A DNA stretch of 64,000 nucleotides from Patescibacteria group bacterium (GTDB taxonomy: Bacteria > Patescibacteriota > Minisyncoccia > UBA6257 > UBA11618), in NCBI GenBank assembly GCA_043822345.1, contig JBDRBW010000008.1, positions 2,332 to 66,331 on the forward strand, given 5' to 3'. The number at the start of each line of letters is the position of its first letter. The stretch's first letter is position 1. Below are positions 22,881 through 40,992 of this stretch, piece by piece. The translations under genes were made by a program, and so were the position numbers. The notes below the pieces were generated by a model. That model was not told the origin of the DNA and did not search any database. It was given only the letters and a program-made list of their open reading frames with translations.

Positions 22881-22886
22881 TGTCGG

Positions 22887-22966: not shown

Positions 22967-22976
22967 GGAGTAGTAT

Positions 22977-23519: not shown

Positions 23520-23533
23520 TATGTAATTAAATT

Positions 23534-23628
23534 GTCATTCTGAGCTTCGCGCCCGCCTGCAACGCTTGAGCGTAGCGATTGCGGGCAGGAAGAATCTTTA
23601 AAAGATCCCTCGACAAGCTCGGGATGAC
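23534..23628. repeat. Family-1 palindromic element (long form)
   Basis: Reads gtcattctgagcttcgcgcccgcctgcaacgc...gcgattgcgggcaggaagaatctttaaaagatccctcgacaagctcgggatgac. Confidence 0.7.
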
Positions 23629-23636
23629 GCAGAGGT

Positions 23637-24200: not shown

Positions 24201-24490
24201 TGGCTATTGTTATTAAAGAACGAAATAGGGGAGTTAACTGGTTTGTGTTTTTGGTATTTATTATTCTTTTCGCCATTGTCATCGGCGGTGGATATTATCT
24301 TTTCTTTGCTCCAACACCCGGTATTGAAGTGGTGTCTCCCTCGGTTTTACAATCCACCAGCGAGATTGCCGAGGTGCAGTTTGATCCTTCGGTGGTAATC
24401 AGCCATCCCCAATTGAAAAATCTGAGACAGATTGGCGGTCTGCCAACAGTAGGGGATTTGGGACGCGAGAATCCACTTCTAGCTTATTAA
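24200..24490 (+). CDS. Small membrane protein (possible PilP-like component)
   Basis: N-terminal TM; 96 aa; TAATG overlap with the upstream gene. Confidence 0.35.
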   Translation: MAIVIKERNRGVNWFVFLVFIILFAIVIGGGYYLFFAPTPGIEVVSPSVLQSTSEIAEVQFDPSVVISHPQLKNLRQIGGLPTVGDLGRENPLLAY

Positions 24491-24586: not shown

Positions 24587-26296
24587 ATGACCAACAAAGA
24601 GCTTTTAGACAAAATAGTGTCGGCCGATCTTTTGTCAGCTCAACGGGCTGACAAATTACTAGCAGAGGCCGAGGTTACCCACCAAAGCGTGGAGGATTTG
24701 CTATATGACCGGCGGTTGGTGGAGGAGATAGAAGTTGCCAGAATCAAAAGCAAGCTACTCGGCATTCCCTTTAAAAAAGTTAATATTAATAACATCAACG
24801 ACGAAGTTTTAGGGCTATTGCCCGAAGAGACGGTTACTAATTACAAAGTAGTGCCGTTGGGCAAGGAGGATAAGATGTTGGTTGTCGGCCTGGTTCATCC
24901 CGATGACCGGCGCGCCCAAGACGCCCTTCGTTATATTGCTAAGCAAAAAAAGATGAGTTTGGGGGTGTACCTGATAACTCCCAGCGATTTGGAGTTGGTA
25001 ATGCGCCGTTATTCGCCATTAAGCAGTCAGATTGAGGCGGCGGTGCGTTCCATACAGGTGAAACCAGGACGGGGCGAGGGGACGAAAAAAATTGGATTAG
25101 AGCAGATGTCCGAGGTTTCCGAGGAGGCGCCGATTATTAAAATCGTCGCCTCAACCTTGAAAGAGGCGGTCAGTATTGGCGCCTCCGATATTCATATTGA
25201 ACCCCAGCGGACTCGACTTCGGTTTCGCTTTCGGATTGATGGTATTTTGCGCGAGGAGCAATCCTTGCCCGCTGAATTGCACTCGGCGATTATCTCCCGC
25301 GTTAAAATTCTTTCCAACCTAAAAATTGATGAAAATCGTGTTCCCCAGGACGGCCGTTTTCGCACCGAAATTTTTGGTCGTGAAATTGATTTTCGTGTTT
25401 CCTCCTTTCCCACGCCATCGGGCGAAAAGGTGGCGATTCGCGTCCTTGACCCCAAAGTGGGTTTAAAACAACTAGATGAATTGGGGGTGAGCGGCCAATC
25501 CGAAGCGATTATTAAAAAAGGAATTGAAGAACCTTTCGGTATGATTTTAATTACCGGCCCTACTGGTTCCGGTAAAACAACCACGCTCTATGCCTTGATG
25601 CAGAAGCTCAATAAAGAAGATGTTAATGTTGTCAGTTTGGAGGATCCGGTGGAGTATACAATAGAAGGCGTTAACCAATCACAGGTACGGCCGGAGATCG
25701 GCTATACCTTTGCTTCTGGTCTGCGCCAGATTTTGCGCCAGGACCCTGACGTGATGATGGTCGGCGAGGTTCGCGATCGGGAAACCGCCGACTTAGCGGT
25801 ACACTCGGCGCTGACCGGCCACATTGTGCTCTCTACCCTGCATACTAATAACGCTGTCGGCGTTATTCCGCGCTTGATTGATATGGACGTTGACGCTTTT
25901 CTTCTGCCTTCGGTTTTGAATCTGATGGTCTCCCAGCGGCTGGTTTCCAAGCTTTGCCAAGAGTGTAAACAACAGGAGTCGCCGTCGGAAACAATTCAAG
26001 GGATTATTGAAAAAGAGGTTGGCGGTATGGTTAAGGGTCCCTATCAGGTTTGGAAGGCGTTGGGTTGTAAGGCGTGCAATAACAAGGGACGCAAGGGGCG
26101 GGTTGGCCTCTTTGAAGTTTTGCAGATGACGCCGCAGTTGGCCGATATCATCAACACCCAACCCACTGAAAATAAAATTCTGGAGGAAACTAGGCGGCAG
26201 AAGATGGTTACCCTCCGCCAGGACGGCATCCTCAAAGCGCTAGAGGGTCTAGTTAGTATTGAAGAAGTCCTCCGCGAAACCGCCGCATCTACGTAA
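24587..26296 (+). CDS. pilB: Type IV pilus assembly ATPase PilB (GspE family)
   Basis: N-terminal GSPII_E-like domain, Walker A GPTGSGKTTT, Asp/His boxes, and a C-terminal tetra-Cys (CQECK...CKACNNKG). Confidence 0.9.
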   Translation: MTNKELLDKIVSADLLSAQRADKLLAEAEVTHQSVEDLLYDRRLVEEIEVARIKSKLLGIPFKKVNINNINDEVLGLLPEETVTNYKVVPLGKEDKMLVVGLVHPDDRRAQDALRYIAKQKKMSLGVYLITPSDLELVMRRYSPLSSQIEAAVRSIQVKPGRGEGTKKIGLEQMSEVSEEAPIIKIVASTLKEAVSIGASDIHIEPQRTRLRFRFRIDGILREEQSLPAELHSAIISRVKILSNLKIDENRVPQDGRFRTEIFGREIDFRVSSFPTPSGEKVAIRVLDPKVGLKQLDELGVSGQSEAIIKKGIEEPFGMILITGPTGSGKTTTLYALMQKLNKEDVNVVSLEDPVEYTIEGVNQSQVRPEIGYTFASGLRQILRQDPDVMMVGEVRDRETADLAVHSALTGHIVLSTLHTNNAVGVIPRLIDMDVDAFLLPSVLNLMVSQRLVSKLCQECKQQESPSETIQGIIEKEVGGMVKGPYQVWKALGCKACNNKGRKGRVGLFEVLQMTPQLADIINTQPTENKILEETRRQKMVTLRQDGILKALEGLVSIEEVLRETAAST

Positions 26297-26385
26297 TAGT
26301 GTCATCCCGCACTATAGTGTCATCCCGCACTATAGTGTCATCCCGCACTATAGTGTCATCCCGCACTATAGTGTCATCCCGCACT
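26296..26385. repeat. Tandem array of 5 x 18 bp (atagtgtcatcccgcact) immediately after the pilB stop
   Basis: Five perfect direct repeats. Each unit is a mini-hairpin containing the family-1 terminus gtcatccc. ORF-track entry 26259-26513 is a spurious translation. Confidence 0.8.
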
Positions 26386-26470
26386 TGATGCGGGATCCAT
26401 TACATCACTGTCATCCCGGAATCCTTCCCATCTGTCATCCCGGAATTTCGCGCAGCGAAATATCCGGGAT
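26386..26470. repeat. Cluster of short palindromes related to family 1 (gtcatcccgca..tgcgggatc; gtcatcccggaatttcgcg...cgaaatatccgggatc)
   Basis: Read directly from the sequence. Confidence 0.5.
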
Positions 26471-26478
26471 CTATATTT

Positions 26479-26769
26479 ATGAAAATCTACTACGTCTATA
26501 TTTTAGCAAGTAAAAGACGTGGCACACTTTACGTCGGTGTAACTGATTATTTAATGCGGCGAGTGTATCAACACAAACATGGTTTAGTAGAGGGCTTCAC
26601 TAAAAAATACAAAGTGAACAGATTGGTTTATTATGAGCAAACAAATGATGTAATGAGTGCTATTAACAGAGAGAAGCAGTTAAAGAGGTGGCGACGACAA
26701 TGGAAAATAGAATTAATAGAAAAAGATAATCCAGAATGGAAGGATTTATACGAAGAGCAGTTTAAATGA
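26479..26769 (+). CDS. GIY-YIG nuclease-family protein (second copy)
   Basis: IYYVYILAS...TLYVGVTDYLMRRVYQHKHG...NRLVYYE; 96 aa. Confidence 0.65.
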   Translation: MKIYYVYILASKRRGTLYVGVTDYLMRRVYQHKHGLVEGFTKKYKVNRLVYYEQTNDVMSAINREKQLKRWRRQWKIELIEKDNPEWKDLYEEQFK

Positions 26770-26877
26770 TAGACGGTATGGATCCCGGATAGCCGCAAGC
26801 GGCTTCCGGGACGACAATGCGTTGCATTGTCGGTTATTCACAGTTTTATTTTTCTTTTAAGTGTTACAATTAAACCA

Positions 26878-28185
26878 ATGAAAAAGCAAAACGCTTTTTG
26901 GTTGATGTTTGCCATTATCATGGTTGGTTTTGTTTTAATTTGGGTTGGCGGTAGTTTTGGCTCCACATCGCAACCAAGGGTTCAAGCTGCTTCCTGTCTC
27001 GATCCACCAACTTGTCCTGACCCAATGACTTCGGCTTGTGTGCGAATTGAGCCCTCGGGTTCAATCTGTACTACTGCTAGTGGTTGGCGTAGTCCAAGTA
27101 GGGCTTGGTGCGGTGAATTAATGAGCGGTGGTCACTACGAACTTACTAATGGTGGTTGTGCCGCTCCGGGATTTGAAAGTTGCTCCGCTTGCACAGGAAG
27201 TAACTGCTATTCCCTTTCTTATGACTGTGCTGGCAGTACGCCAATACATAAGCCAGTAGTAAAATGCACCGAATGTTACAAGGGTCTGTGCGGAGAAGAG
27301 CCCCCTTGTGGTAATGGCAGGTTAGAACTAGAAGAATGTGAAGAGTGTGATGACAGCAATACTATTAGTGGCGATGGCTGTAGTGACAGGTGTGAGATTG
27401 AGGGCACCGATCCAGTTTGTGGCAATAGCAAAAGAGAGGGAGATGAAGAGTGTGATGGAGACGATATTGCTGATTGTCCAAGGCCCGATTGTGAATGCAC
27501 GATTAGATGTAACGATGATTGTGTATGTGTTTATGATCCGATTGAGCCAGAGTGTGGCAACAGCATTGTTGAACCGCCAGAGCAGTGCGACGACGGCAAC
27601 ACTGACGACACTGATGGTTGTATGAATTGTATGATACAAAAAGGAAATTGTGAGCCGTCAGGGCTTTGTGGCAATGGAGAAGTGACGCCACCCGAGCAGT
27701 GTGAAGGTAGTGGAAGTTGTGAGAGTGTTTGTGTGGGTGATAAAGAGGGATGGATAGAGTATTGTGGTGATAAGCCTCTAGGAGCCTGCTCAGGAGCGCA
27801 CTGTGAGGTAGATGGCGCTAGTTGTATTCCCACATTTGACGAGGATGGAATGGATAATTTCTGTCAAGGTATACCGAGCTGTACTGGAACTATTTTTTGT
27901 AAATTAGCTGGAGCAGGAGCGACCTGCAACCCCGATTCTTGTATGTGTGAACCGCCAGTAACCGAATGTGGTAATGGTATTACAGAACCACCAGAACAAT
28001 GCGACGATGGCAATAATATTGACGGCGATGGCTGCGGTAGCACCTGCGTAATAGAGGGTGGCGGTGGAGATTGTGGCGGTGTTACTTGTGGGAGTGGGGA
28101 GAAGTGTTGTATTTGCGATCCGTTTCATGGAATGGACTCATACTGCACTACTATCAGCGACTGCATCTGTCCAATTTCCGATTAA
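26878..28185 (+). CDS. N-terminally anchored cysteine-rich repeat surface protein (Myxococcus-type CxxC-x-PPEQCDDGN-x4-DGC repeats)
   Basis: Start MKKQNAFWLMFAIIMVGFVLIWV (TM anchor). Multiple ~38-aa repeats of the form CGNG..EPPEQCDDGNT.DGDGC..C. Confidence 0.7.
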   Translation: MKKQNAFWLMFAIIMVGFVLIWVGGSFGSTSQPRVQAASCLDPPTCPDPMTSACVRIEPSGSICTTASGWRSPSRAWCGELMSGGHYELTNGGCAAPGFESCSACTGSNCYSLSYDCAGSTPIHKPVVKCTECYKGLCGEEPPCGNGRLELEECEECDDSNTISGDGCSDRCEIEGTDPVCGNSKREGDEECDGDDIADCPRPDCECTIRCNDDCVCVYDPIEPECGNSIVEPPEQCDDGNTDDTDGCMNCMIQKGNCEPSGLCGNGEVTPPEQCEGSGSCESVCVGDKEGWIEYCGDKPLGACSGAHCEVDGASCIPTFDEDGMDNFCQGIPSCTGTIFCKLAGAGATCNPDSCMCEPPVTECGNGITEPPEQCDDGNNIDGDGCGSTCVIEGGGGDCGGVTCGSGEKCCICDPFHGMDSYCTTISDCICPISD

Positions 28186-28196
28186 TAAATAAACAT

Positions 28197-29840
28197 ATGA
28201 AATCAATTCCACTAAAAACGAAATTATCCAATCAAGCTCTATTTTGGGTGGTTTTTGTTGTGGTGGTTGTTGGATTAATATTGTTATTTGCTTTTAGTAA
28301 TAATTGGCGAGCGCTGGCGGACACGCAATATTGCACCGAAGATGGCTCTGGTGGTGTTTTTACTAATGCGCTTGGTTGGGCATCGCATGCCACTCCATTT
28401 TGTTGCGCTGGAAGTATAAGTTCGTGTATTTCGGTTCCTAGTTGCAGTGGTAGCGGTTGTTATCTCCATAATTTTTCTTGTATGGGAGACACACCAGTAA
28501 GCGCAGAAGATCCAATAAGTTCGTGTGGTAATGGAATTTGTGGTAATAGCACTCCAGAACCACCGGAGCAGTGCGACGATGGCAATACTGTGAGTGGCGA
28601 TGGCTGTAGTAGTACTTGTACTAATGAAGGGGGAGGAGGTTGTGGTAGTTGTGGTGATAGGGCGTTGAATTTGGGTGAGGGATGTGATGATGGCAATATT
28701 GTTGACGGTGATGGTTGTAGCAGTATTTGTGAGGATGAAGATGAAGTTTGGTCTACCAGCGAAGAATGTCAGAATGCCAATTACCCGCTCTGTTGTCCTT
28801 ATAACCCAGTAGTAAGTGGATTTACTCCTCTCGCGGGAACCGATTGCAGTGATCTTCCATTCCCTACCTGTTTTAATTGTGTGTTTGATTTATATCAAGA
28901 GACATGTGAACCGGGAATAGATGAAACGGCTTGCGCTGATTATGAGAGATGTATTTTCTGTAGTTGTACGCCTACGGGTACTCCTCACCCCGGTTTTTGT
29001 GGTGATAGTATTATAGATGAAGGTGAGGAATGTGATGATGGTCAGTATTGTGAGAATGGAACACCTTGTACAGAAGAGGATGATAGAGAATGTCTTGGTA
29101 TTGGTGATGGATTGTGCAAACCTCGCGGTGGCGATGGTTGTAGTTATTATTGTCAAATCGAAGGCGGTTTTTGTGGCGATGGCATTTTAGAGCCGCCGGA
29201 ATTTTGTGAAATTGATGCGGATTGCGCAATCTTTGGTTCTTCAAAATGCAAGAGCGATTGCACGTGCGATGAAATACCACCCGATGAATGTTTATATTGC
29301 GGTGATGGAATAGTAAACTTGAGTTTGGAGCAATGCGATGATGGCAATAATACCAACGGTGATGGCTGTAGTTATAATTGCAAGATAGAGACCGGTCCCA
29401 TGTGCGTAATCGGCGATGGCGTCATCAATCCTCCCGATGAAAATTGTGATACCGATGCGGATTGTGGAGAGTGTGTTCCTCATGAGGACTGCTTTGGTTT
29501 CATGTGCGAAGGATTAGATGCCGATAGTTGTGCGCATACAGAGTGTGTACCGGGAACATCTGGCAGTAGTTGTCCTAAAGTATGTACTCTTGATGGTGGC
29601 TACTGTGAACCCAGTTCCGGTCTAATAGATTACTGTACAGGATTAGAACCATCAGAGTGTAGCGGCTACAATCCAGTGGTAGGGGGGCCAAAAAATCCAT
29701 ATTGCGCAGGTAGTGGGGCAGGAACTTGTTACCCCGACACCTGTAACTGCGACTTGCCATTAGGCACGCCAGGGCAGATATGGGACAGTATTATTAATAA
29801 GACCATGAAATCATATCTTAATAATTATATTAATGAGTAA
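28197..29840 (+). CDS. N-terminally anchored cysteine-rich repeat surface protein, paralog
   Basis: Start MKSIPLKTKLSNQALFWVVFVVVVVGLILLF. The N-terminal ~145 aa are near-identical to the protein at 30721. Several CDDGN..DGDGCS repeats. Confidence 0.7.
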   Translation: MKSIPLKTKLSNQALFWVVFVVVVVGLILLFAFSNNWRALADTQYCTEDGSGGVFTNALGWASHATPFCCAGSISSCISVPSCSGSGCYLHNFSCMGDTPVSAEDPISSCGNGICGNSTPEPPEQCDDGNTVSGDGCSSTCTNEGGGGCGSCGDRALNLGEGCDDGNIVDGDGCSSICEDEDEVWSTSEECQNANYPLCCPYNPVVSGFTPLAGTDCSDLPFPTCFNCVFDLYQETCEPGIDETACADYERCIFCSCTPTGTPHPGFCGDSIIDEGEECDDGQYCENGTPCTEEDDRECLGIGDGLCKPRGGDGCSYYCQIEGGFCGDGILEPPEFCEIDADCAIFGSSKCKSDCTCDEIPPDECLYCGDGIVNLSLEQCDDGNNTNGDGCSYNCKIETGPMCVIGDGVINPPDENCDTDADCGECVPHEDCFGFMCEGLDADSCAHTECVPGTSGSSCPKVCTLDGGYCEPSSGLIDYCTGLEPSECSGYNPVVGGPKNPYCAGSGAGTCYPDTCNCDLPLGTPGQIWDSIINKTMKSYLNNYINE

Positions 29841-30702
29841 ATTAAATCTGCAAAAAATGAAATTAACCAACCAGCCGTTGTTTTGGCTAATATTCATTAT
29901 AATAGTCATTGGATTAGTTTTGTTGTTTACTATAGACGTTTTTGGAATTACTGGTCGTCAGACAAGAATTTTGGCTGGTGGATATTGTGGTGATGGAAAC
30001 GTTGATACTGGCTTGGGCGAACAGTGCGATGATGGCAACAGAATTATAGGCGACGGCTGTGATAACTGCCAAATTACAGGTGGCGGTTATTGCGGAGATG
30101 GTAATTTAGACGCCGGTGAAGAATGTGACGATGGCAATACTAATAATAATGATGGCTGCGCCGACTGTCGCAGGCAAACTCCAGGATGCGTTATTAGGTG
30201 TGGCAATGGAGAAGTGACGCCACCCGAGGAGTGTGATGATGGTAATCTCACTAACGGCGATGGCTGTAGTAGTACTTGTCAAAACGAGCGTCCCAGTCAG
30301 TGTGAATATCCAGTGTGTAGCGATATTAAAGATTGTGAAAAGTGTAATAGCTACGACGCCTGCCGTTGGGGAACACAGATAGGTGTTTGTTTGTTTATGG
30401 ATAAGTGTGAGCCGCCTCTAGTAGAGAGTATAAATGGTTGCGTGCCTTGTGGGGGTGTGGAGAGATGCGAGCCTGGCTCCTGTCCAAGTGGTTATTCTTG
30501 TTGCCTCGCTTCTAGTGGAGTCAGTGAGTGCGTCCTGGGTTTTGATTGTGGCGGCTTTATTCCTTGCGGCGACGGTCCCCCGTGTATGGCTGCAACAGAG
30601 GAGTGTTGTATGACGGCAACAATGGGGCCAACCTGCATACCCAAAGGAGCGCATTGTGAAAAAAGCGGACCCGGATCTCCTATTTTCTGGAGATGGAATT
30701 AG
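29833..30702 (+). CDS. N-terminally anchored cysteine-rich repeat surface protein, short paralog
   Basis: MSKLNLQKMKLTNQPLFWLIFIIIVIGLVLLF, followed by CGDGN..EQCDDGN repeats. Confidence 0.65.
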   Translation: MSKLNLQKMKLTNQPLFWLIFIIIVIGLVLLFTIDVFGITGRQTRILAGGYCGDGNVDTGLGEQCDDGNRIIGDGCDNCQITGGGYCGDGNLDAGEECDDGNTNNNDGCADCRRQTPGCVIRCGNGEVTPPEECDDGNLTNGDGCSSTCQNERPSQCEYPVCSDIKDCEKCNSYDACRWGTQIGVCLFMDKCEPPLVESINGCVPCGGVERCEPGSCPSGYSCCLASSGVSECVLGFDCGGFIPCGDGPPCMAATEECCMTATMGPTCIPKGAHCEKSGPGSPIFWRWN

Positions 30703-30720
30703 GGGTAATTAATAAAAAAG

Positions 30721-33700: not shown

Positions 33701-34431
33701 CTGATGTGATAAATATAGTTTACGTCGCCTTTAACTACAGCTCTCCTGCTGATTTAGTTCCCAAAGCTACTCAGTGGATGAATGCATTATTAAGTGTTGA
33801 TCCTTTTATTGCCGAAAACCAGAAACTTCAATTTTGGGTAGCCGACACTATGCCGCCAGCAACACCTGGCGCTGGTGGAGGTTGTTGGGATAAATGTGGT
33901 GGTGGTTCGCGTGGAGCATATAGTTCGTATTGCCCGACATTGCCTAATCGAATCCATACTGTTGGCTGTAATTACACTTGCCGTAGCGCGGCATGGACTA
34001 ATGGTGGACCTATTTATATGGAATCTGACGAACCAAGAATATTGTATGTATCTACTCATGAATTTGGCCACGCCCTTGGTGGATTAGCTGACGAGTATGT
34101 AGAGCCTATTAAAGGCGACCAGTGGAGAGCTCCTAACTGTGCAAATAATAATGCGCAGGCCAATACTTGGTGGGGTTCACGAATAGGAACTGGTGATGTG
34201 GGAATGTTTGAAGGTTGTTCTTATGTGATGGATAATCGTCGACCTAAGGCTAACGGACTAATGAACGGTGATACGAGTCTTCCTTATCCATTTACTACTG
34301 ACTACGGCGATATTAGCGTAGAAAGACTTATAGAGCGACTCGCCCCTTATTCTGGAAATCCTTTGCTAACATTTCTTACAAGATCGTTATTTGTATTTAA
34401 ACCTTTCGAATTTATTTTCAAATTACTATGA
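30721..34431 (+). CDS. Giant (1236 aa) N-terminally anchored cysteine-rich repeat protein with a C-terminal M64-like zinc metallopeptidase domain
   Basis: Has more than 10 Myxococcus-type Cys repeats. The C-terminal ~250 aa contain VSTHEFGHALGGLADEY, an HExxH...DEY arrangement resembling the IgA-peptidase M64 family. Confidence 0.7.
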   Translation: MFNKSNSLKTKLSNQMLFWVVFVVVVVGLILLFAFSNNWRALADTQYCTEDGSGGVFTNALGWASHATPFCCAGSITLCISVSSCSGSDCYLHNFSCMGDTPVSAEDPISSCGNGICGNNSVEPPEQCDDGNTTDGDGCSSACTNEGGGGCGDCANDSDCVDMGMGDPSSSCYLGFGGSSLLMVECVVSTGECVLGECDRNEDCGMYVDGVGWAPGLCDFRQRPFPDIESERSEGLYGICAPDAPCCMGKEAGYEEFCFGFIEPDQCSEAHLPGSFDYLCQWICPVCGNDILEPPYEQCDDGNTTNGDGCSSTCQIEGGDICCVPNPDCGGLACDGLSIEDCENSKCISGTIPGGDCVRSCAYSSGECKPSAGAGDHCKALSDSACEADPYCKPDPDADCGSPNCEGCGDGEVNDPKEECDDGNNVSGDGCSYNCKIETGGMCGDGIVTPPEECDDNNNIDGDGCAADCTYEECRFCGDGTVDSDIGEQCEGSGSCESVCVGDKEGWIEYCGDKPSGTCSGVHCEVDGASCIPTFDEDGMDNFCQGIPSCTGTIFCKLAGAGATCNPDSCMCEPPVTECGNGTVDPGEECDDGNHNSGDGCSYNCKIETGGMCVIGDGIINTPDENCDGDGDCASVGGCVANPEKNWQDWCQWLSGLLGGGCAAIGPECQLEGGLCVPGPVLDDPEERQSACDLAGSLSEMRCRDAYHAGDAGPDDGGCKWVEEGGGGICNPDSCMCEIPPAECGDGIVTPPEECDDNNNIDGDGCSATCQIEGGMCVIGDGIINTPDENCDGDGDCGGICVSSPLEWQDFCHMEPIDDCTSFYCKVDGTECVPAFDDEGMEDYCSIRKIEPRCWNIFCKWADKSTCDPDTCMCELPEPECGDHVIDPPEQCDDGNRTDGDGCDKNCKDETGKKVCGDGEVNQPEEECDEGTADTATCDRDCTLVACGDNHVNTVAGEQCDDGNTNNNDGCSASCQWESATGCIPLRANQNETADVINIVYVAFNYSSPADLVPKATQWMNALLSVDPFIAENQKLQFWVADTMPPATPGAGGGCWDKCGGGSRGAYSSYCPTLPNRIHTVGCNYTCRSAAWTNGGPIYMESDEPRILYVSTHEFGHALGGLADEYVEPIKGDQWRAPNCANNNAQANTWWGSRIGTGDVGMFEGCSYVMDNRRPKANGLMNGDTSLPYPFTTDYGDISVERLIERLAPYSGNPLLTFLTRSLFVFKPFEFIFKLL

Positions 34432-35423
34432 TCAAAGTAACAAAAAACAACTTAATCTGGGTCTTGATAGGAATTGTTATTGCTATTGCTGTAATAGCAT
34501 TGGCGACAGGGGTGGTTTTTCCTAATACTCAGCCGCAGGCCGCTGGTGAGGATGTTGGTATAGGGGATTGCAACAGGATTAATCAAATAAATGCTTCTGA
34601 TGAGACAAGACGACTAATGTGTAACAATATTGCCAATTGCTTCTGGCGACCAGGACCACCTAGTCTTTGCCTCGAGAATCTAGCAGGAGAGTTTTCGGCT
34701 TTATCTATTGATTTAGTTCGGCAAGCGGACGGGAATTATAAAGTTCAGGAGATTAGACCTATAATCAGTAGATATCCAGTTAAGCCGGCTTTTGATGAGG
34801 GTAATATTCTAGCTATCAGAACGGCTGATGGAGATTTTTTCCAAACCTTCTCCTCCGTCGACATGCTTATGGGGGACGATTTTACAGGAGAATCTCCTAA
34901 ATCTGACAATAGAGAAGTAATCCGTGAATCGATGACTATCGAGGTGGGTGTAGGAGATCAACCTCTTGGTACCCCCGACAACTATAAAGTTGTTGTCAAG
35001 TCATGCGATAGTTATGATGACAATCCCGATAATGATTGCTCTAAAGAGTTCAGTGATTTTTCTAATGAAGATGAGTTTGAGTGGATTTGTAATGTCGCAG
35101 AAGGTAATCATCCCAATGGTAGCTGTTGCCAATGTAACAACGGTCGAGGTGTAGATGTAACCGCGATAGTTAAATCTCAGTGCGTTGATAGCAATCTTCT
35201 CTATTGTATGTTCAGTTATGGCGTTGAGGCCTTCGCCGAGTATGGTGGCGATTGCCAATCGGGATGCAATAAGATTACTACCGTTCAGTATTCTTGCCGA
35301 ACCAACGATATAAGCACGAAGCAGTTTATTAATAATGGTAAAGATGGAGTAGGAATATTATATTGTTTTGGTGGTAGAATTAATGTTATTAGCGCCACTT
35401 TTGGCGGCCCAGAAATAAAATAG
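34428..35423 (+). CDS. N-terminally anchored Cys-rich hypothetical surface protein
   Basis: TM anchor IWVLIGIVIAIAVIALATGVV; 331 aa with scattered Cys; no recognised domain. Confidence 0.5.
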   Translation: MIKVTKNNLIWVLIGIVIAIAVIALATGVVFPNTQPQAAGEDVGIGDCNRINQINASDETRRLMCNNIANCFWRPGPPSLCLENLAGEFSALSIDLVRQADGNYKVQEIRPIISRYPVKPAFDEGNILAIRTADGDFFQTFSSVDMLMGDDFTGESPKSDNREVIRESMTIEVGVGDQPLGTPDNYKVVVKSCDSYDDNPDNDCSKEFSDFSNEDEFEWICNVAEGNHPNGSCCQCNNGRGVDVTAIVKSQCVDSNLLYCMFSYGVEAFAEYGGDCQSGCNKITTVQYSCRTNDISTKQFINNGKDGVGILYCFGGRINVISATFGGPEIK

Positions 35424-35490
35424 CGGGAGATTAAATATTAAAATAGTTATACACACAAGCAGGTTTTTTAAGGAAATCAGTTATTAGAGT

Positions 35491-36939
35491 ATGAACGAAG
35501 ACGCGCACTATTTTATTATTAAAGGTATTGTTGTTGTTCTAATAATAACAGCAGTGTTTTTGTCGTGGCAGACTTTTTCTAAAGTTAGTGTGTTAGTAAG
35601 AGCGACAACTTTCAATTTCAACCCAGATTTCGACCTAGAGGCTTTTATTAGAGATTTTACCACAACTGGTGGTTATTCTACCCTAGAGGATGACGTAAGA
35701 GATTCAAGAGGAGTTTTTAGTCTACCAGCAGACATTACCCCAGACCGGGTAGCGGGAACAACACTAGTGGGTGTTGGCAGATCAGTTTCCCCATTCTTTA
35801 CCCCACCATCATCGCCTGTTTGTGGTGATGGTACATGCGAATCACCTGAGAACACAACAACTTGTATAGCCGATTGCCCTCCACCTCCACCTATCTGTGG
35901 TAATGGATCTTGTGAGTCGCCTGAGAGCTCGACGACTTGCCTAGTCGATTGTCCTCTCCCCGCAGCGGTTTGCGGTAACGGGACATGTGAATCACCCGGC
36001 GAAGACTCGGGGATTTGTCCAGCTGATTGCCCACTAGTTGGTTGTGGTAACGGGACTTGTGAAGTAACCGAGGATGCAGCGAGTTGTCCAGCTGATTGTT
36101 CATTGTTTATTATATCTTCACCTGTCTGCGGTGACGGGGCTTGTGAATTGGGGGAGACTTCGACAAGTTGTATGATCGACTGTCTTTTTGCGCTCACTTT
36201 TGCAGTAGCTTCACCTGTTTGCGGCAATACGATTTGTGAACCACCCGGCGAAGACTCGGGGAGTTGTCCAGCTGATTGTCCGCCACCCGTCACGCCTTCC
36301 TGTGGCAACGGGCTCTGCGAATCGGTAGTTGGTGAGAGTTTTGGGAGTTGTCCATTGGATTGTCCACCATCAACACCTGGTTGTGGTAGTTGTGATCCTC
36401 TTGTTGACCCCAGCTGTTTTGCTGGTGGAGGCGGAGGTACGTCTGGTTATGGATTCTGTGACTCGGCAGATGGAGAAACCCTACTTAATTGCCCAGAAGA
36501 TTGCGGCGGTGGCAGCGGCGGGAGTTGTCTTTATGAGAATATTTGCAACCAACCTGGTGGGTGTGTGACCAGCTCTTTTACGCCTCCTATACACTCAATA
36601 GGATACATAGATAGTTACCTTCAAGTTTGTGGGGACGGGTTAACTGATTTTGGCGAAGATTGGGGGACGACCTGCACACCAGAAGGCAAGATCGAAATGT
36701 CAGAGCGATATGGATGTGGCAATAGGCTATGTGAGCGAGGTGAAGAGGATACCTGTCTAATAGATTGTTCGATACCGGCCGGCACGGCGTGTGGTGATGG
36801 TGTTTGTGAAGGGTTTGAAAGTTGTATTACTGGTGGTTGTAGCAAGGCTCAAATGTTGGGAATGGGAGTGTGTGTAGTAGATTGTGGAGACCCAGGATCT
36901 GCGTGGTGGACCCGGTCCTTCTCCCTATATCCTTTATAG
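35491..36939 (+). CDS. N-terminally anchored surface protein with seven ~21-aa CGNG-x-CE-x5-7-CPxDCP repeats
   Basis: Repeats read CGDGTCESPENTTTCIADCP, CGNGSCESPESSTTCLVDCP, CGNGTCESPGEDSGICPADCP and so on. Confidence 0.6.
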   Translation: MNEDAHYFIIKGIVVVLIITAVFLSWQTFSKVSVLVRATTFNFNPDFDLEAFIRDFTTTGGYSTLEDDVRDSRGVFSLPADITPDRVAGTTLVGVGRSVSPFFTPPSSPVCGDGTCESPENTTTCIADCPPPPPICGNGSCESPESSTTCLVDCPLPAAVCGNGTCESPGEDSGICPADCPLVGCGNGTCEVTEDAASCPADCSLFIISSPVCGDGACELGETSTSCMIDCLFALTFAVASPVCGNTICEPPGEDSGSCPADCPPPVTPSCGNGLCESVVGESFGSCPLDCPPSTPGCGSCDPLVDPSCFAGGGGGTSGYGFCDSADGETLLNCPEDCGGGSGGSCLYENICNQPGGCVTSSFTPPIHSIGYIDSYLQVCGDGLTDFGEDWGTTCTPEGKIEMSERYGCGNRLCERGEEDTCLIDCSIPAGTACGDGVCEGFESCITGGCSKAQMLGMGVCVVDCGDPGSAWWTRSFSLYPL

Positions 36940-36965
36940 GTATCAAAAATGCAAAAAATATAAGA

Positions 36966-38348
36966 ATGAAATTCAACATAAAAATAAGTACAAAAAAACG
37001 ACCAATCTGGGAGGTTCCTTTAATTATAGCGCTACTGGTAGTACTAGTGGGTACAACAGCCACATGGGAAGATCGCCCGGCTGTTACTAGGGCGCAAACT
37101 CCACCGTCACCACCATCAGCAGCAATAACCCAAGCGCAAGATGAGTTTGCGAGCTATATGGCGGCTATTCATATAATTAATAGTGGCTTTGAGACTACTA
37201 AAATAAGAGTGGGGATGGTTATAGGCAGAGAGACAAACTGGAAAGCGCTGATGGTACAGAACCAGTCGAGTATAGGTTTTCTTGGAAGTTGTCTTTATTG
37301 TGTAACAAATGCGATACGCTACTGCCGAAATAACGGTACTACATCAACCCCTGCGCAGGAAATTTCTAATGCCAATCAAAGAATTAACAATCTTCGAGGT
37401 TTATTTAATGGACCTTCGGGCAAGATGTATCTAGCGGAGAAGGAGCTAAAGAAGCCAATAAATCAGACGAATTGGCTCATGGTTGTTGATGCTATAGAAA
37501 CTGCAAACAATATGGTTACGAGTGTTAACGCAGTTGATATCTGTACCGATTATGTAGCCATGGAGGATCAGGCGATCATGACCGGTGCAAGTGTAGTCTT
37601 TACTGTTGCTACTGCTATTCTGATGCCACTGAGTGGCGCGGTAGCTGCTAGAATAGTTGGCGGCAGTGCCACTGCCGTTGCTCCGACCTCAGCCGGATTA
37701 ATGGCATCTGTCAAAGCGGGGGCTCTTTCCGGTGCCGTGCTATCGGGTGGATCATCTATTATTAATAACGTTAGCGACGCTGAGTTTGGTAAACAATCAT
37801 GGTTAAATGCGTCTCTTAATATCGCTGCCGACAGCACTATTGGTCTTGCTGTTGGCGCAGGTTTAGGGGGTGGATTTCATTTTGGAACGATGGGAATGAA
37901 AAAATTAGTGATTTGGTTGGCGGTGCGGATGCGGGCCAACCCAAATATAACTCCGGCACAGGTTAAGGGCTTGGTAGTAAGAGCTAATAGGGCTCAAGAA
38001 ATTAGAGGTACGGCAGCTAAATTAAAGAGCCAGATAGATGGTATGGAAACTAGTAATAATGCTCAAAAGGCTAAATTAGTTAGAGAGTGGACCGAGTTGG
38101 CTCGTCAGGCTGGAACTAAGGCTAACCAAAACAATTGCATAAGAGATAAAAAATTATCAAGTATTTTAAGGAGAATGAAGATTAAAGAGGCGGAGCTGGC
38201 GGATCTCCAGCTCGCTATCGATAGTGGTTTTGGTGGCAATGAGCCGTTCAGAAGATCAACTGCTCGGGCGGCACTTGCAGGTATGGAAGCGCAATATCAA
38301 GCTATATTAGGCGAAATAAACACAGCGTTTCCACCTCCTGCGCCATAA
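36966..38348 (+). CDS. N-terminally anchored hypothetical protein with Ala/Gly-rich and C-terminal coiled-coil regions
   Basis: Start MKFNIKISTKKRPIWEVPLIIALLVVLVG; 460 aa. The ORF-track start at 36870 is probably over-extended. Confidence 0.5.
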   Translation: MKFNIKISTKKRPIWEVPLIIALLVVLVGTTATWEDRPAVTRAQTPPSPPSAAITQAQDEFASYMAAIHIINSGFETTKIRVGMVIGRETNWKALMVQNQSSIGFLGSCLYCVTNAIRYCRNNGTTSTPAQEISNANQRINNLRGLFNGPSGKMYLAEKELKKPINQTNWLMVVDAIETANNMVTSVNAVDICTDYVAMEDQAIMTGASVVFTVATAILMPLSGAVAARIVGGSATAVAPTSAGLMASVKAGALSGAVLSGGSSIINNVSDAEFGKQSWLNASLNIAADSTIGLAVGAGLGGGFHFGTMGMKKLVIWLAVRMRANPNITPAQVKGLVVRANRAQEIRGTAAKLKSQIDGMETSNNAQKAKLVREWTELARQAGTKANQNNCIRDKKLSSILRRMKIKEAELADLQLAIDSGFGGNEPFRRSTARAALAGMEAQYQAILGEINTAFPPPAP

Positions 38349-38427
38349 TCTAACGCGCCGGGTCAGACTCGGCGCGTTTATTTTTTTATCCACAGAGTTG
38401 TTTGTGGTACACTTAAATCACAAAGCA

Positions 38428-38536
38428 GTCATTTCGAGCTTGTCGAGAAATCTCATAATCGTCGTAATAAAGTTGATGAGATCCTTCGATATGCTCCCGC
38501 CGAAGGCGAGGCTCGCCCTTATGGGCGGCAGGATGA
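38428..38536. repeat. Family-1 variant/composite element abutting the pilT start
   Basis: Reads gtcatttcgagcttgtcgagaaatctcat ... gctcccgccgaaggcgaggctcgcccttatgggcggcaggatgacg. One module is the reverse complement of a module in the 17164-17286 copy. Confidence 0.7.
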
Positions 38537-38547
38537 CGAATGACGAT

Positions 38548-39618
38548 ATGGATTACAAAACTAAACTTAACGAGCTGCTACTGGTAACAGCGCGGCAAAA
38601 TGCGTCGGATTTACACATCAGCGTTGGCCGCCGCCCGATTTTGAGAATAGATGGCCGATTAATTCCGCTAGAGAAGGAACCAATTATTACTCCGGAAATC
38701 GCCGAGGGGTTGGTTATTGCTATGCTTTCCACTGAGCAAAAAACGCGTTTTCTTAAGGAGAAGGAGATTGACCTCTCTTACGCTTTTGAAGACAAGGCGC
38801 GTTTTCGTGTCAATGTCTTTTTTCAAAAAGGTTTTATGGCCGCCGCCTTGCGCTTAATTCCCTCCCACATCAAGACCGTTGAAGAACTTAATCTACCGCC
38901 GATTCTTCATGATTTTACTAAGCTGTCGCAGGGCTTTGTTTTGGTAGTTGGTCCAGCTGGCCACGGCAAATCAACCACTTTAGCGGCTCTCATTGATGAA
39001 ATTAATAAAAACCGCACCGAACACATTATCACCATTGAAGATCCGGTAGAATATCTCTTTACTCAAGACCGCTCCATTATCTCTCAAAGAGAAGTGCGTC
39101 AAGACACTATTGATTTCCATCACGCTCTCAAGTCGGTTCTGCGCCAAGACCCCGATGTCTTGATGATCGGCGAGATGCGCGACCGCGAGTCAATGGCGAC
39201 GGCGATGACTGCCGCCGAGACTGGCCACCTTGTTTTCTCTACTCTACACACCAATTCCGCCGCCCAAACCGTTGACCGCATCATTGATAGTTTTCCCGCC
39301 GAACAGCAGGGGCAAATTACCTCGCAACTAGCAGGTACATTGGTGGCTATTATCTCCGAACGTCTGCTTCCGCGGGTTGATGGCGGCCGGGTTCCGGCTA
39401 CCGAGGTAATGATTGTCAACTCCGCCATTCGTAATTTAATTAGAGAAAACAAGGCCTATCAGATTGACTTGGTCATTGAAACCAGCTTACAAGAGGGGAT
39501 GGTTACTCTTAATCGTTCGCTGGCTAATCTGGTGAAGAAACGGGTTATTGCATTGGAGCAGGCGGAAAGCTATTCGCTTAATCCATCGGAGTTGAGAATA
39601 TTAATAGAGAAAGTATAA
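38548..39618 (+). CDS. pilT: Twitching-motility ATPase PilT (start at MDYKTKL; an alternative ATG at 38533 lies inside the repeat)
   Basis: Walker A GPAGHGKSTTLAA, ASDLHI, His box. The tracked ORF from 38398 translates through the repeat and is over-extended. Confidence 0.85.
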   Translation: MDYKTKLNELLLVTARQNASDLHISVGRRPILRIDGRLIPLEKEPIITPEIAEGLVIAMLSTEQKTRFLKEKEIDLSYAFEDKARFRVNVFFQKGFMAAALRLIPSHIKTVEELNLPPILHDFTKLSQGFVLVVGPAGHGKSTTLAALIDEINKNRTEHIITIEDPVEYLFTQDRSIISQREVRQDTIDFHHALKSVLRQDPDVLMIGEMRDRESMATAMTAAETGHLVFSTLHTNSAAQTVDRIIDSFPAEQQGQITSQLAGTLVAIISERLLPRVDGGRVPATEVMIVNSAIRNLIRENKAYQIDLVIETSLQEGMVTLNRSLANLVKKRVIALEQAESYSLNPSELRILIEKV

Positions 39619-39624
39619 CACATC

Positions 39625-39706
39625 GTCATCCTGAGGGCGAAGTCGAGTCTGACTCGACGTAGCCCGAAGGATCTTTAAAAAGATTCTTCACCTTGTTCAG
39701 AATGAC
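39625..39706. repeat. Family-1 palindromic element
   Basis: Reads gtcatcctgagggcgaagtcgagtctgactcgacgtagcccgaaggatctttaaaaagattcttcaccttgttcagaatgac. Confidence 0.7.
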
Positions 39707-39720
39707 ACAATAAACGTCAT

Positions 39721-40929: not shown

Positions 40930-40938
40930 CGGCTTCGC

Positions 40939-40986
40939 CGTCATCCTGAGCAGAGCGTAGCGTAGTCGAAGGATCTTGTGTATAAT
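40939..40986 (+). promoter_or_regulatory. Half family-1 element followed by an extended -10 (TGTGTATAAT) placing the TSS at or near the pilin ATG
   Basis: gtcatcctgagcagagcgtagcgtagtcgaaggatc, then ttgtgTATAATaaaaagATG. Possible leaderless pilin mRNA. Confidence 0.5.
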
Positions 40987-40992
40987 AAAAAG

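What the first reader, a model, noticed from the sequence alone, without database searches (positions are those of the whole stretch)
24587..39618. Type IV pilus locus split by an 11.5-kb island of anchored cysteine-rich surface proteins, one with an M64-like protease domain
pilM-N-O-pilB and pilT-pilC-pilA-pilD-pseudopilins form one T4P locus. Between pilB and pilT sit seven consecutive same-strand genes (26878-38348), each starting with a short basic leader plus a single TM anchor. They carry tandem Myxococcus-type Cys repeats (C-G-N/D-G-x-x-E-P-P-E-Q-C-D-D-G-N-x4-D-G-C-S-x-x-C) or a distinct 21-aa CGNGxCE...CPxDCP repeat. The 1236-aa member ends in a domain with HEFGHALGGLADEY, an HExxH..DEY arrangement like IgA-peptidase M64. 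In CPR episymbionts T4P mediate host attachment. An adhesin/protease cargo embedded in the pilus operon suggests a pilus-associated surface or host-interaction module not seen in canonical T4P loci.
Basis: partly seen in the sequence, partly recalled or inferred. Interest (0 to 1): 0.8.

Follow-up and report, generated by a model that had tools for sequence, protein, structure and literature searches.

The report
Surface-protein island inserted in pilus operon
An ultrasmall (Patescibacteria) bacterium carries a 12-kb, probably recently acquired block of genes for cysteine-rich exported proteins, one ending in a zinc protease domain. The block sits inside a conserved pilus operon, but nothing shows it works with the pilus.

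Summary
pilM-N-O-orf96-pilB (21789-26296) and pilT-pilC-pilA-pilD-pseudopilins (38548-44336) are one type IV pilus (T4P) operon. It is split by a small GIY-YIG gene and seven tightly packed same-strand genes (26878-38348).

Four of the seven carry DUF4215/TIGR02232 'Myxococcus' Cys repeats, and one carries seven CGxGxCE..C..DC repeats. The last 258 aa of the 1236-aa protein are an M64-type zinc metallopeptidase domain:
- It has the HEXXHXXXGXXD-E-Y motif.
- 295 homologues were found.
- A profile of the domain hits M64 structures at E=6e-19.

The 'pilus-associated cargo' reading is not supported:
- In 70 of 72 related Patescibacteria loci, pilT follows pilB within 11-950 nt.
- No island homologue lies within 10 kb of pilB in any of 80 loci.
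- No T4P genes were found around any M64-like homologue examined; several of these are in DPANN archaea.
- Island genes have GC3 of 0.31-0.39, against 0.46-0.54 for the pilus genes.
- The island ends in a strong intrinsic terminator just before pilT.

The best reading is a lineage-specific, probably horizontally acquired cassette of variable surface adhesin and protease genes that landed in the pilB-pilT spacer. Interest is modest.

The parts
21789..24490 (+). pilM (21789-22880), pilN (22977-23519), pilO (23637-24200) and a conserved 96-aa ORF (24200-24490): the first part of the T4P operon
   Evidence: Pfam gives PilM_2 4e-40, PilN 17.4 bits (below cut-off) and PilO 2e-5. All four lie in the same order upstream of pilB in relatives L001-L028.
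24587..26296 (+). pilB, the pilus extension ATPase (569 aa)
   Evidence: T2SSE 6e-126 and MshEN 6e-12. It is 76% identical to the L001 homologue.
26296..26446 (+). Perfect 18-nt x5 tandem repeat ATAGTGTCATCCCGCACT (26296-26385), followed by two more GTCATCCCGG units. This is the left border of the inserted DNA.
   Evidence: TRF finds 5.0 copies at 100% match. The sequence was read directly. It folds at -46.2 kcal/mol, z = -8.7.
26479..26769 (+). 96-aa GIY-YIG nuclease-domain gene flanked by hairpins. GC3 is 0.35, like the island.
   Evidence: Pfam GIY-YIG 2.5e-14. Hairpins at 26437-26470 and 26783-26811. GC3.
26878..28185 (+). g1: 435 aa, N-terminal hydrophobic segment, 13.1% Cys, 3 DUF4215/TIGR02232 repeats
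   Evidence: Bases 27693-28034 are 92% identical to 32181-32522 in g4.
28197..29840 (+). g2: 547 aa, N-terminal hydrophobic segment, 11.7% Cys, 3 TIGR02232 repeats. Its first ~150 codons are a near copy of the start of g4.
   Evidence: Bases 28181-28653 are 89.5% identical to 30708-31183.
29833..30702 (+). g3: 289 aa, N-terminal hydrophobic segment, 11.8% Cys, 3 TIGR02232 repeats. It overlaps g2 by 8 nt.
30721..33654 (+). g4, aa 1-978: N-terminal hydrophobic segment, then a long acidic Cys-rich stalk with 8 TIGR02232 repeats interleaved with other repeated Cys modules
   Evidence: TIGR02232 5e-78 with 8 stretches; DUF4215 7e-34. Internal repeats.
33655..34431 (+). g4, aa 979-1236: M64-type zinc metallopeptidase domain. 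Key residues are H1113, E1114, H1117, D1124, E1125 and Y1126. A 22-residue hydrophobic tail follows that is not part of the family domain.
34428..35423 (+). g5: 331 aa, N-terminal hydrophobic segment, 16 Cys, no known domain. Its start overlaps the g4 stop (ATGA).
   Evidence: No Pfam or NCBIfam hit even at E<=10. No PDB hit. The single-sequence AF2 model is unusable, pLDDT 40.6.
35491..36939 (+). g6: 482 aa, N-terminal hydrophobic segment, 10.2% Cys, seven tandem CG[ND]GxCE..C..DC units (aa 111-291) plus degenerate copies
   Evidence: No Pfam, NCBIfam or PDB hit. The same repeat type occurs in the archaeal protein of L081.
36966..38348 (+). g7: 460 aa, N-terminal hydrophobic segment, Pro-rich linker, Gly/Ala-rich hydrophobic region (aa ~200-330), charged helical C-terminus. 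It is not Cys-rich and is an ORFan.
   Evidence: The only database match is itself, NCBI ABH822_00845. No Pfam or PDB hit. Hydropathy.
38352..38391 (+). Intrinsic-terminator-like hairpin (12-bp stem, 8 G-C pairs) followed by a T-run, 4 nt after the g7 stop
   Evidence: Best plus-strand terminator call between pilM and pilT. It folds at -20.3 kcal/mol, z = -5.2.
38428..38537 (+). Two short intergenic repeat elements just upstream of pilT. The 27-nt one also lies upstream of pilB (24496). The 41-nt one also lies upstream of the HtrA-like gene (17163, minus strand).
   Evidence: 2 matches each, against 0 expected by chance.
38548..44336 (+). pilT (38548-39618), pilC (39721-40929), the major pilin (40978-41433), pilD (41363-42313) and four pseudopilin-like genes (42321-44336)
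   Evidence: Pfam gives T2SSE, T2SSF, N_methyl and A24. The order is the same in relatives. The G-F-T-L/M-I-E motif was read in three of the four pseudopilins.

Best explanation
A ~12.2-kb block of DNA has been inserted into the normally tiny pilB-pilT spacer of a conserved Paceibacteria-type T4P operon. It comprises a tandem repeat, a small GIY-YIG gene and a seven-gene operon (g1-g7), and it is probably foreign.

**Shown.** The seven genes encode Sec-targeted proteins. Five of them are disulfide-rich acidic repeat proteins. Large Cys-rich extracellular proteins, several with only very weak similarity to Myxococcus Cys-rich repeat proteins, have already been described in CPR bacteria as strain-variable candidate attachment factors.

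**Inferred.** The largest protein, g4, would be held at or released from the membrane by its N-terminal segment. It would extend a ~940-residue Cys-rich stalk and present at its far end an M64-type zinc endopeptidase. By analogy with the solved M64 enzyme BF3526, H1113, H1117 and D1124 would bind zinc and E1114 would act as general base. The likely role is cutting proteins on the surface of a host or neighbouring cell, or scavenging peptides. The paralogues g1-g3 and g6 would act as adhesin-like or scaffold proteins. Near-identical segments exchanged between g1, g2 and g4 point to ongoing duplication or gene conversion, which would diversify the set.

**Link to the pilus.** The position inside the pilus operon is best read as an accident of insertion into a permissive spacer. 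At most, the island borrows read-through transcription from pilB. It then terminates at its own hairpin, so pilT onward would need separate initiation or terminator read-through.
For: **Insertion.**
- The pilB-to-pilT distance is ~12.2 kb here. It is 11-950 nt in 70 of 72 related loci, and 25 nt in the closest relative, L001 (76% PilB, 80% PilT identity).
- Synteny from the comF-like gene to the last pseudopilin is otherwise conserved.
- No g1-g7 homologue lies within 10 kb of pilB in 80 loci.

**Foreign or atypical composition.**
- GC3 is 0.31-0.39 for the GIY-YIG gene and g1-g7, against 0.46-0.54 for all T4P genes.
- Synonymous codon choice differs. Arg AGA is 0.41 in the island and 0.13 outside; Pro CCG is 0.13 and 0.43.
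- Mann-Whitney p = 9e-4 against all other ORFs of at least 150 aa.

**Operon structure.** Spacers or overlaps run from -8 to +67 nt. A strong terminator follows g7.

**Export and repeats.**

**Protease.** The motif definition and ligand roles come from PMC12402451.

**Architecture seen elsewhere, away from pili.**
- P0003 and P0004 combine DUF4215 with this domain. P0003 sits beside a DsbA/thioredoxin-family gene.
- The 1355-aa archaeal protein of L081 has an N-terminal TM segment, CGxGxC repeats and a C-terminal M64-like domain, next to SRP54.
- No T4P genes were found in 32 metagenome loci or in the 6 contigs L113-L118.

**Paralogue exchange.** Segments of 342 nt at 92% and 478 nt at 89.5% identity are shared within the island.

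**Literature.** Cys-rich, strain-variable extracellular proteins in CPR are described in PMC4736985.
Against: - No integrase, transposase, tRNA target or flanking direct or inverted repeat of 10 nt or more marks the borders. The insertion mechanism is unknown.
- Low GC3 is not unique to the island. Four or five other ORFs in the window are also low. It could reflect weak expression or weak selection rather than foreign origin.
- Only one relative closer than 66% PilB identity has an informative junction, so the timing is vague.
- Whole genomes of relatives were not searched. They may carry DUF4215 genes elsewhere.
- No terminator was detected between pilB and g1, so co-expression with the pilus assembly genes is possible.
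- One other lineage (L014) has also placed secreted-protein genes at this junction. This could hint at a selective reason for the location.
- Protease activity, zinc binding, disulfide formation and surface exposure are all inferred.
Confidence: 0.68

Rival explanations
1. The island is a functional accessory of the pilus. It is co-transcribed with pilM-pilB, so adhesins and a protease are made together with the pilus and act with it during host attachment.
For: - All genes share the strand of the T4P operon.
- No terminator-like site was found between pilB and g1.
- T4P drive host binding in cultivated Saccharibacteria (PMC9894109 and PMC11623550, listed).
- Another lineage (L014) has a secreted NlpC/P60 protein at the same junction.
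Against: - No conserved linkage exists in 72 related operons or around any homologue examined.
- The island proteins lack the prepilin G-F-T-L-I-E signal carried by the pilin and at least three of the four pseudopilins of this operon.
- The island's GC3 and codon use differ from those of the pilus genes.
- The island ends in its own terminator.
- In other lineages the only recurrent occupants of this spacer are a CheY-like receiver or a pilin.
Confidence: 0.12
2. The block is the cargo of a selfish element. The free-standing GIY-YIG nuclease at the left border would cut island-less alleles near the conserved pilB/pilT genes. Repair would then copy the nuclease gene plus the adjacent genes, as in intron-less homing.
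For: - The GIY-YIG gene lies at the island border, between two highly conserved genes. It has island-like GC3 and is flanked by hairpins and a tandem repeat.
- GIY-YIG homologues occur at other positions in two related loci, L034 and L035.
Against: - The 96-aa protein is only the catalytic domain and has no recognisable DNA-binding domain.
- 11.5 kb of co-converted cargo would be unusually long.
- No second copy of the island or empty-site polymorphism was seen.
- The GTCAT-type repeats also occur elsewhere in the window.
Confidence: 0.1
3. The island is an assembly or binning chimera. Foreign DNA would have been joined in at short intergenic repeats.
For: - The source is a metagenome-assembled contig, NCBI ABH822, 67.7 kb.
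- Composition differs between the island and its flanks.
- Short repeats of 27-53 nt lie at the right junction.
Against: - Two independent mis-joins would have to restore a collinear, intact pilB ... pilT operon on one strand.
- The junction repeats are shorter than the larger k-mers typically used in metagenome assembly. This rests on general knowledge; the assembly parameters are unknown.
- The repeat family at both borders is native to this genome.
Confidence: 0.03

Closest known systems
Peptidase family M64 (Pfam PF09471): BF3526 of Bacteroides fragilis (PDB 4DF9/9QDI), BACOVA_00663 (3P1V), and the Thomasclavelia ramosa IgA protease (9QDH, 9QA6, 9EKK)
   Same: - It has the HEXXHXXXGXXD zinc motif followed by E-Y.
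- The profile of the domain family matches the whole catalytic domain of 3P1V and 4DF9 (E = 6e-19 and 1e-17).
- Homologues are named 'M64 family metallopeptidase' by NCBI.
   Different: - It shares only ~17-19% identity with the solved enzymes.
- The full protein scores below the Pfam gathering score (21.1 against 26).
- It has no N-terminal beta-sandwich domain (PF16217). That domain gates the active site in BF3526.
- The three cysteines of the second, structural zinc site of BF3526 and ThomasA are not aligned to cysteines. This subfamily instead has its own invariant C1071, C1140 and C1166.
- The domain sits at the end of a Cys-rich repeat stalk in a CPR bacterium, with relatives in DPANN archaea. 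The published M64 network text, as read, names no CPR or archaeal lineage.
Myxococcus cysteine-rich acidic repeat proteins (TIGR02232 / DUF4215), and the large Cys-rich extracellular proteins reported in CPR Peregrinibacteria (PMC4736985)
   Same: - The same repeat is present, well above cut-off, in 17 copies in g1-g4.
- The proteins are exported, acidic and very Cys-rich.
- They vary between lineages. They were proposed as attachment proteins.
   Different: - Here they form a compact seven-gene cassette.
- One member is fused to a protease.
- The cassette sits inside a T4P operon.
- No function has been shown for any member of this group.
Canonical monoderm/CPR type IV pilus operon (pilM-N-O-pilB-pilT-pilC-pilin-pilD-minor pilins)
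   Same: Gene content and order are identical to those of 70 or more related Patescibacteria loci, and all genes are intact.
   Different: The operon is interrupted between pilB and pilT by 12.2 kb of unrelated genes with their own terminator.
Pappalysin-type metzincins (PAPP-A, ulilysin)
   Different: The fold match is much weaker than to M64. The third zinc ligand here is Asp in HEXXHXXXGXXD. By my recollection, metzincins such as pappalysins use His in HEXXHXXGXXH; this was not tested here.

Membership tests
Peptidase M64 | Catalytic zinc motif HEXXHXXXGXXD (two His and one Asp ligand, Glu general base), retained across nearly all clusters of the family (Asp replaced by Glu in two; one cluster lacks it) (PMC12402451) | tested here: met
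   HEFGHALGGLAD at aa 1113-1124. H, E and H are invariant, and D is at least 90% conserved, in 27 homologues. It aligns to HEFGHSFGGLAD of 3P1V and 4DF9.
Peptidase M64 | Score at or above the curated Pfam PF09471 gathering threshold (26 bits) | tested here: inconclusive
   The full protein scores 21.1 bits, below the threshold. The isolated domain scores 28.1 bits, but only over 27 residues. 8 of the 10 closest homologues pass with 31-55 bits.
Peptidase M64 | Catalytic-domain fold of the solved M64 enzymes | tested here: met
Peptidase M64 | Second, structural zinc site formed by the Glu after the motif plus three Cys (BF3526 E323/C398/C409/C412) | tested here: not met
   The Glu (E1125) is invariant. 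The three Cys positions of 3P1V and 4DF9 align to non-Cys residues of this subfamily (alignment). The subfamily has other invariant Cys instead. Model coordinates could not be inspected.
Peptidase M64 | N-terminal beta-sandwich domain (PF16217), as in the largest M64 cluster | tested here: not met
   No PF16217 hit in g4. A DUF4215 repeat precedes the domain.
Peptidase M64 | Zinc-dependent endopeptidase activity | not testable with these tools
   Needs purified protein.
TIGR02232 / DUF4215 cysteine-rich acidic repeat proteins | Repeat HMM above the curated cut-off, in multiple copies | tested here: met
   g1 scores 87.0 bits, g2 103.9, g3 78.4 and g4 256.5 against a cut-off of 20.8, with 3, 3, 3 and 8 stretches. 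DUF4215 scores 36-116 bits against a cut-off of 27. g5, g6 and g7 have no hit.
Type IV pilus operon | Extension ATPase, retraction ATPase, platform protein, prepilin peptidase, pilins with an N-methylation motif, and PilMNO alignment proteins | tested here: met
   Conserved order in relatives is shown.
   0 of 80 pilB loci carry island homologues. No T4P genes were found in 32 metagenome loci or in L113-L118. L116 has only an unlinked A24 peptidase gene 2 kb away on an archaeal contig.
   The N-termini of g1-g7 read K..N-Q-x-L-F-W..., with no Gly at -1 and no Glu at +5. The pilin and at least three of the four pseudopilins of the same operon have G-F-T-L/M-I-E.
   Only predictions are available. 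There is no terminator call after pilB, and a strong one after g7.
Horizontally acquired genomic island | Absent from close relatives at a conserved syntenic site | tested here: met
Horizontally acquired genomic island | Composition deviating from the host genome | tested here: met
   GC3 is 0.31-0.39 against 0.46-0.54 in the flanking genes, and synonymous codon use is shifted. p = 9e-4. A few other window ORFs are also low.
Horizontally acquired genomic island | Mobility genes (integrase or transposase), a tRNA target, or flanking repeats | tested here: not met
   Only a GIY-YIG gene is present. No tRNA lies nearby. The borders share no repeat of 10 nt or more. No viral relatives were found.

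The most novel reading that the evidence does not exclude
In this organism the island has been captured by the pilus operon and is expressed by read-through from pilM-pilB. Pilus assembly would then be coupled to display of a stalked M64-type protease and adhesins that attack or grip the host cell surface. More broadly, a distinct clade of M64-like peptidases would be a shared host-interaction tool of two unrelated groups of ultrasmall episymbionts, CPR bacteria and DPANN archaea. This clade lacks the N-terminal gate domain and the Cys3 zinc site, and it is fused to Cys-rich stalks.
Probability: 0.12. Interest if true: 0.6.

Novelty: new member of a known kind. Interest (0 to 1): 0.3.

Why it matters
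How CPR bacteria recognise and exploit their hosts is largely unknown, and most of their surface proteins have no assigned activity. This locus assigns a concrete, testable activity to one of the large Cys-rich extracellular proteins typical of these organisms: a zinc endopeptidase of the M64 type, placed at the tip of a disulfide-rich stalk. Similar stalk-plus-M64 proteins occur in DPANN archaea.

The locus also serves as a caution. Position inside a pilus operon does not by itself indicate a pilus function. Comparative synteny here shows a lineage-specific insertion, so the pilus link should not be propagated in annotation.

Tried and rejected
- **Word-indexed homologue search with the M64-like domain.** It found nothing. 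The exhaustive HMMER search then found 295 homologues.
- **Exact look-ups of window PilB and g7 in the contig index.** Neither was on record, so the source contig could not be fetched. It was identified only by name, NCBI ABH822 / MFH1759089.1.
- **g7 homologue search.** The only match was g7 itself.
- **g5, g6 and g7 against Pfam at E<=10, NCBIfam and PDB sequences.** Nothing usable.
- **g5 single-sequence AF2.** pLDDT was 40.6 and the model was discarded. So the idea that g5 is a detached equivalent of the M64 N-terminal domain or an inhibitor could not be tested.
- **Metagenome scan with the 27-sequence alignment.** With 4 sequences it returned mostly distant M64 genes. Only L081 was informative.
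- **Apparent 2.5-kb 'long pilB matches'.** I first took these as possible introns or inteins in pilB. They are cross-matches of PilB onto the adjacent pilT. Rejected.
- **GTCATCC motifs at both borders as possible terminal inverted repeats.** The motif is scattered through intergenic regions of the window, partly as the reverse of the AGGATGAC ribosome-binding region. The borders share no repeat of 10 nt or more. Rejected.
- **Rfam.** Only tRNAs, none near the island.
- **Viral collection scans with g5, g7 and the M64 alignment.** No relatives.
- **AFDB fold library.** Not available.
- **Promoter scan.** The number of hits was no greater than in shuffled sequence, so it was not used.

Full report
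**1. What is in the sequence**

The window comes from a Patescibacteria (CPR) genome of the Paceibacteria/Parcubacteria type.
- The PilB protein finds 80 related loci, all in Patescibacteria MAGs. The closest is 76% identical, and Harrisonbacteria and Liptonbacteria are at 53-60%.
- Two island proteins are identical to NCBI entries from a 'Patescibacteria group bacterium' MAG contig of 67.7 kb: ABH822_00845 and MFH1759089.1. The latter is named only 'DUF4215 domain-containing protein'.
- The surrounding genes are housekeeping: IMPDH, HtrA-like proteases, PheS/PheT, GyrB, ThrRS and DnaE.

pilM, pilN (weak), pilO, a conserved 96-aa ORF and pilB lie at 21789-26296. pilT, pilC, a pilin, pilD and four pseudopilin-like genes lie at 38548-44336.

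Between them lie several elements:
- a perfect 18-nt x5 tandem repeat starting at the last base of the pilB stop codon (26296-26385);
- a 96-aa GIY-YIG gene (26479-26769);
- seven same-strand genes (26878-38348), packed with spacers or overlaps of -8 to +67 nt.

**2. The seven proteins**

All seven have one N-terminal hydrophobic stretch of 19-23 residues.
- g1-g4 are 10-13% Cys and 13.5-17% Asp+Glu. They carry 3, 3, 3 and 8 copies of the TIGR02232/DUF4215 repeat, far above the curated cut-offs. The repeat core occurs nowhere else in the 64 kb.
- g6 has seven tandem CG[ND]GxCE..C..DC units.
- g5 has 16 Cys. g7 has 1.1% Cys, a Gly/Ala-rich hydrophobic middle and a charged helical end. Neither has a repeat or a detectable relative.
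- g1, g2 and g4 share near-identical DNA segments: 342 nt at 92% and 478 nt at 89.5%. The second includes the ribosome-binding region. The paralogues are therefore being duplicated or converted within the island.

Whether the N-terminal segments stay as anchors or are cleaved cannot be decided here. Ala-x-Ala-like sites follow most of them, which I read directly.

**3. The protease domain**

Alone, the last 258 residues of g4 barely touch Pfam Peptidase_M64: 28.1 bits over 27 residues, and 21.1 bits in the full protein against a cut-off of 26. Further evidence makes the assignment firm.
- An exhaustive search of 1.84 billion representatives found 295 homologues, 91 of them at E<=1e-10. Most cover about residues 3-232 of the domain.
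- Eight of the ten best homologues pass the Pfam M64 cut-off. Two of them (P0003, P0004) also carry DUF4215 repeats.
- In a 27-sequence alignment, H1113, E1114, H1117, E1125, Y1126, three Cys, one Gly and one Met are invariant. D1124 is at least 90% conserved.
- A profile of that alignment matches the whole catalytic domain of the solved M64 enzymes 3P1V (6e-19) and 4DF9 (1.4e-17). It matches the T. ramosa IgA protease at 2.5e-7.
- The AF2 model is confident, with pLDDT 88.7 and pTM 0.86. Its 17 best Foldseek matches are all M64.

The published definition of the family is HEXXHXXXGXXD, with His, His and Asp on the zinc and Glu as base (PMC12402451). This is met exactly by HEFGHALGGLAD.

There are three differences from the solved enzymes:
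- The N-terminal beta-sandwich domain, which restricts substrate access in BF3526, is absent.
- The three Cys of the second zinc site are not conserved, and the subfamily has other invariant Cys instead.
- The domain sits at the end of a ~940-residue repeat stalk.

**4. Is the island part of the pilus system?**

The evidence says no.
- In 72 related loci that contain both genes, pilT starts 11-950 nt after pilB in 70. The gap is 25 nt in the closest relative.
- Where the gap is 0.4-0.95 kb, in more distant Staskawiczbacteria-like lineages, it usually holds a CheY-like receiver gene or, in a few loci, a pilin.
- The two larger gaps hold unrelated genes. L014 has a secreted NlpC/P60 protein plus a small anchored protein. 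L042 has a multi-pass membrane protein, a DNA-binding protein (my reading of the sequence) and a receiver.
- No homologue of g1-g7 lies within 10 kb of pilB in any of the 80 loci.
- No T4P genes were found around any homologue of the protease domain that I could place on contigs. That covers 32 metagenome loci and six further contigs.
- Several of these contigs are archaeal, with DPANN-type neighbours such as SRP54, prefoldin and L24e/S28e. Some homologues are named Micrarchaeota or Nanoarchaeota by NCBI.
- The 1355-aa protein of L081 repeats the whole design: an N-terminal TM segment, CGxGxC..E..C..DC repeats like those of g6, and a C-terminal M64-like domain. It is not near any pilus gene.
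- The island proteins also lack the prepilin signal that the pilins of this operon carry.

**5. Signs of acquisition and of separate transcription**

Overall G+C hides the difference between the island and its flanks, because Gly, Cys, Asp and Ala codons raise positions 1 and 2.
- At third positions, the GIY-YIG gene and all seven island genes are at 0.31-0.39. All pilus genes are at 0.46-0.54. Synonymous codon choice is clearly shifted.
- The island differs from the other ORFs of the window at p = 9e-4, although a few other ORFs are also low.
- Four nucleotides after the g7 stop there is a 12-bp G+C-rich hairpin followed by a T-run. It folds at -20.3 kcal/mol with z = -5.2. No such site was called after pilB.
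- The likely transcription pattern, which is inferred, is therefore pilM ... pilB(-island) | terminator | pilT onward.
- The spacer before pilT contains two short repeat elements. They also lie just upstream of pilB and of an HtrA-like gene. They may be promoter or leader elements, but this is untested.
- No integrase, transposase, tRNA target or border repeat was found, and no viral relatives. The mechanism of insertion is open. The GIY-YIG gene at the border is the only candidate for a mobility function.

**6. Interpretation**

The best-supported reading (about 0.68) is a lineage-specific, probably horizontally acquired cassette of exported proteins. Most are disulfide-rich acidic proteins, and one is a stalked M64-type zinc protease. 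The cassette inserted into the pilB-pilT spacer.

Large Cys-rich extracellular proteins, several with very weak similarity to Myxococcus Cys-rich repeat proteins, are already described in CPR bacteria. They vary between strains and were proposed as attachment factors (PMC4736985). This island fits that class and adds a predicted enzymatic head.

The functional-pilus-module reading keeps about 0.12. Strand, proximity and possible read-through from pilB are its only support. A homing-type selfish element with cargo gets about 0.10, and an assembly chimera about 0.03.

**7. Novelty and score**

All the parts belong to known kinds:
- the T4P operon;
- DUF4215 surface proteins;
- the M64 peptidase family, whose homologues NCBI already names as such.

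The combination of repeat stalk and M64 head exists in other database proteins. What is not in the literature I could search is a CPR/DPANN clade of M64-like enzymes with this architecture. The text of the recent M64 family survey, as far as I read it, names only other bacterial phyla, fungi and trypanosomatids.

This is a useful annotation and a reasonable experimental lead. It is not a new kind of system, and the pilus link that made the finding attractive is not supported. Interest 0.3.

Noticed in passing
window 26296-26446: A perfect 18-nt x5 tandem repeat (ATAGTGTCATCCCGCACT, containing the palindrome CACTATAGTG) starts at the last base of the pilB stop codon. Two more GTCATCCCGG units follow. 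The region folds into long hairpins (-46 kcal/mol).
   Followed up: partly
window 26479-26769: A free-standing 96-aa GIY-YIG nuclease-domain gene lies between pilB and the island. It is bracketed by ATCCCGG-type hairpins and has island-like low GC3 (0.35). Homologues sit at unrelated positions in L034 and L035.
   Followed up: partly
window 24496-24522 and 38428-38454; 38497-38537 and 17163-17203(-): Two short intergenic elements each occur twice, always just upstream of a gene start. The exact 27-mer precedes pilB and pilT. The 41-mer, with one mismatch, precedes pilT and an HtrA-like protease gene. The 41-mer ends in the AGGATGAC ribosome-binding region. They may be leader or promoter modules or miniature repeats.
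   Followed up: partly
window 58391-62665 (- strand): The DnaE gene (DNA polymerase III alpha, 1424 aa) carries an intein. Pfam Intein_splicing matches aa 613-979, between the NTPase and finger domains.
   Followed up: no
window 19986-20723 (- strand): A 245-aa ORF with no Pfam match has extremely low GC3 (0.21), in the lowest-GC stretch of the window (0.36). It may be another foreign or fast-evolving gene, just upstream of the comF-like gene and the T4P operon.
   Followed up: no
L014 11762-14516: A related Patescibacteria genome has an independent 3-kb insertion at the same pilB-pilT junction. It encodes a 714-aa secreted NlpC/P60-domain protein and a 206-aa membrane-anchored protein.
   Followed up: partly
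L029-L077 (e.g. L043 11626-12569; L047, L039): In Staskawiczbacteria-like relatives the pilB-pilT spacer regularly holds a ~120-165-aa CheY-like receiver gene. In a few it holds an extra pilin gene. This suggests a lineage-specific pilus regulator placed between the two ATPases.
   Followed up: partly
L081 6233-10300: An archaeal (DPANN-like) contig encodes a 1355-aa protein with an N-terminal TM segment, CGxGxC..E..C..DC repeats like those of g6, and a C-terminal M64-like domain 45% identical to the core of the window domain. It lies between a glycosyltransferase-like gene and SRP54.
   Followed up: partly
L117 6770-8236: P0003 is the closest homologue that combines DUF4215 with the M64-like domain. 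Two genes downstream of it, past a class II aminoacyl-tRNA synthetase gene on the opposite strand, is a 488-aa thioredoxin/DsbA-family gene. That fits a need for disulfide formation in these proteins. No such gene was seen in the window.
   Followed up: no
window 34363-34431: After the end of the conserved M64-like domain, g4 carries a 22-residue hydrophobic tail (LLTFLTRSLFVFKPFEFIFKLL) that is absent from all homologues. The g4 stop overlaps the g5 start (ATGA). The tail could be a second membrane contact, or a by-product of the overlap.
   Followed up: no
window 9020-14045: An operon pairs a MoxR-like AAA ATPase (AAA_3) with a VWA-domain protein, with two unannotated ORFs between and around them. 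It lies upstream of the pilus region and was not examined.
   Followed up: no
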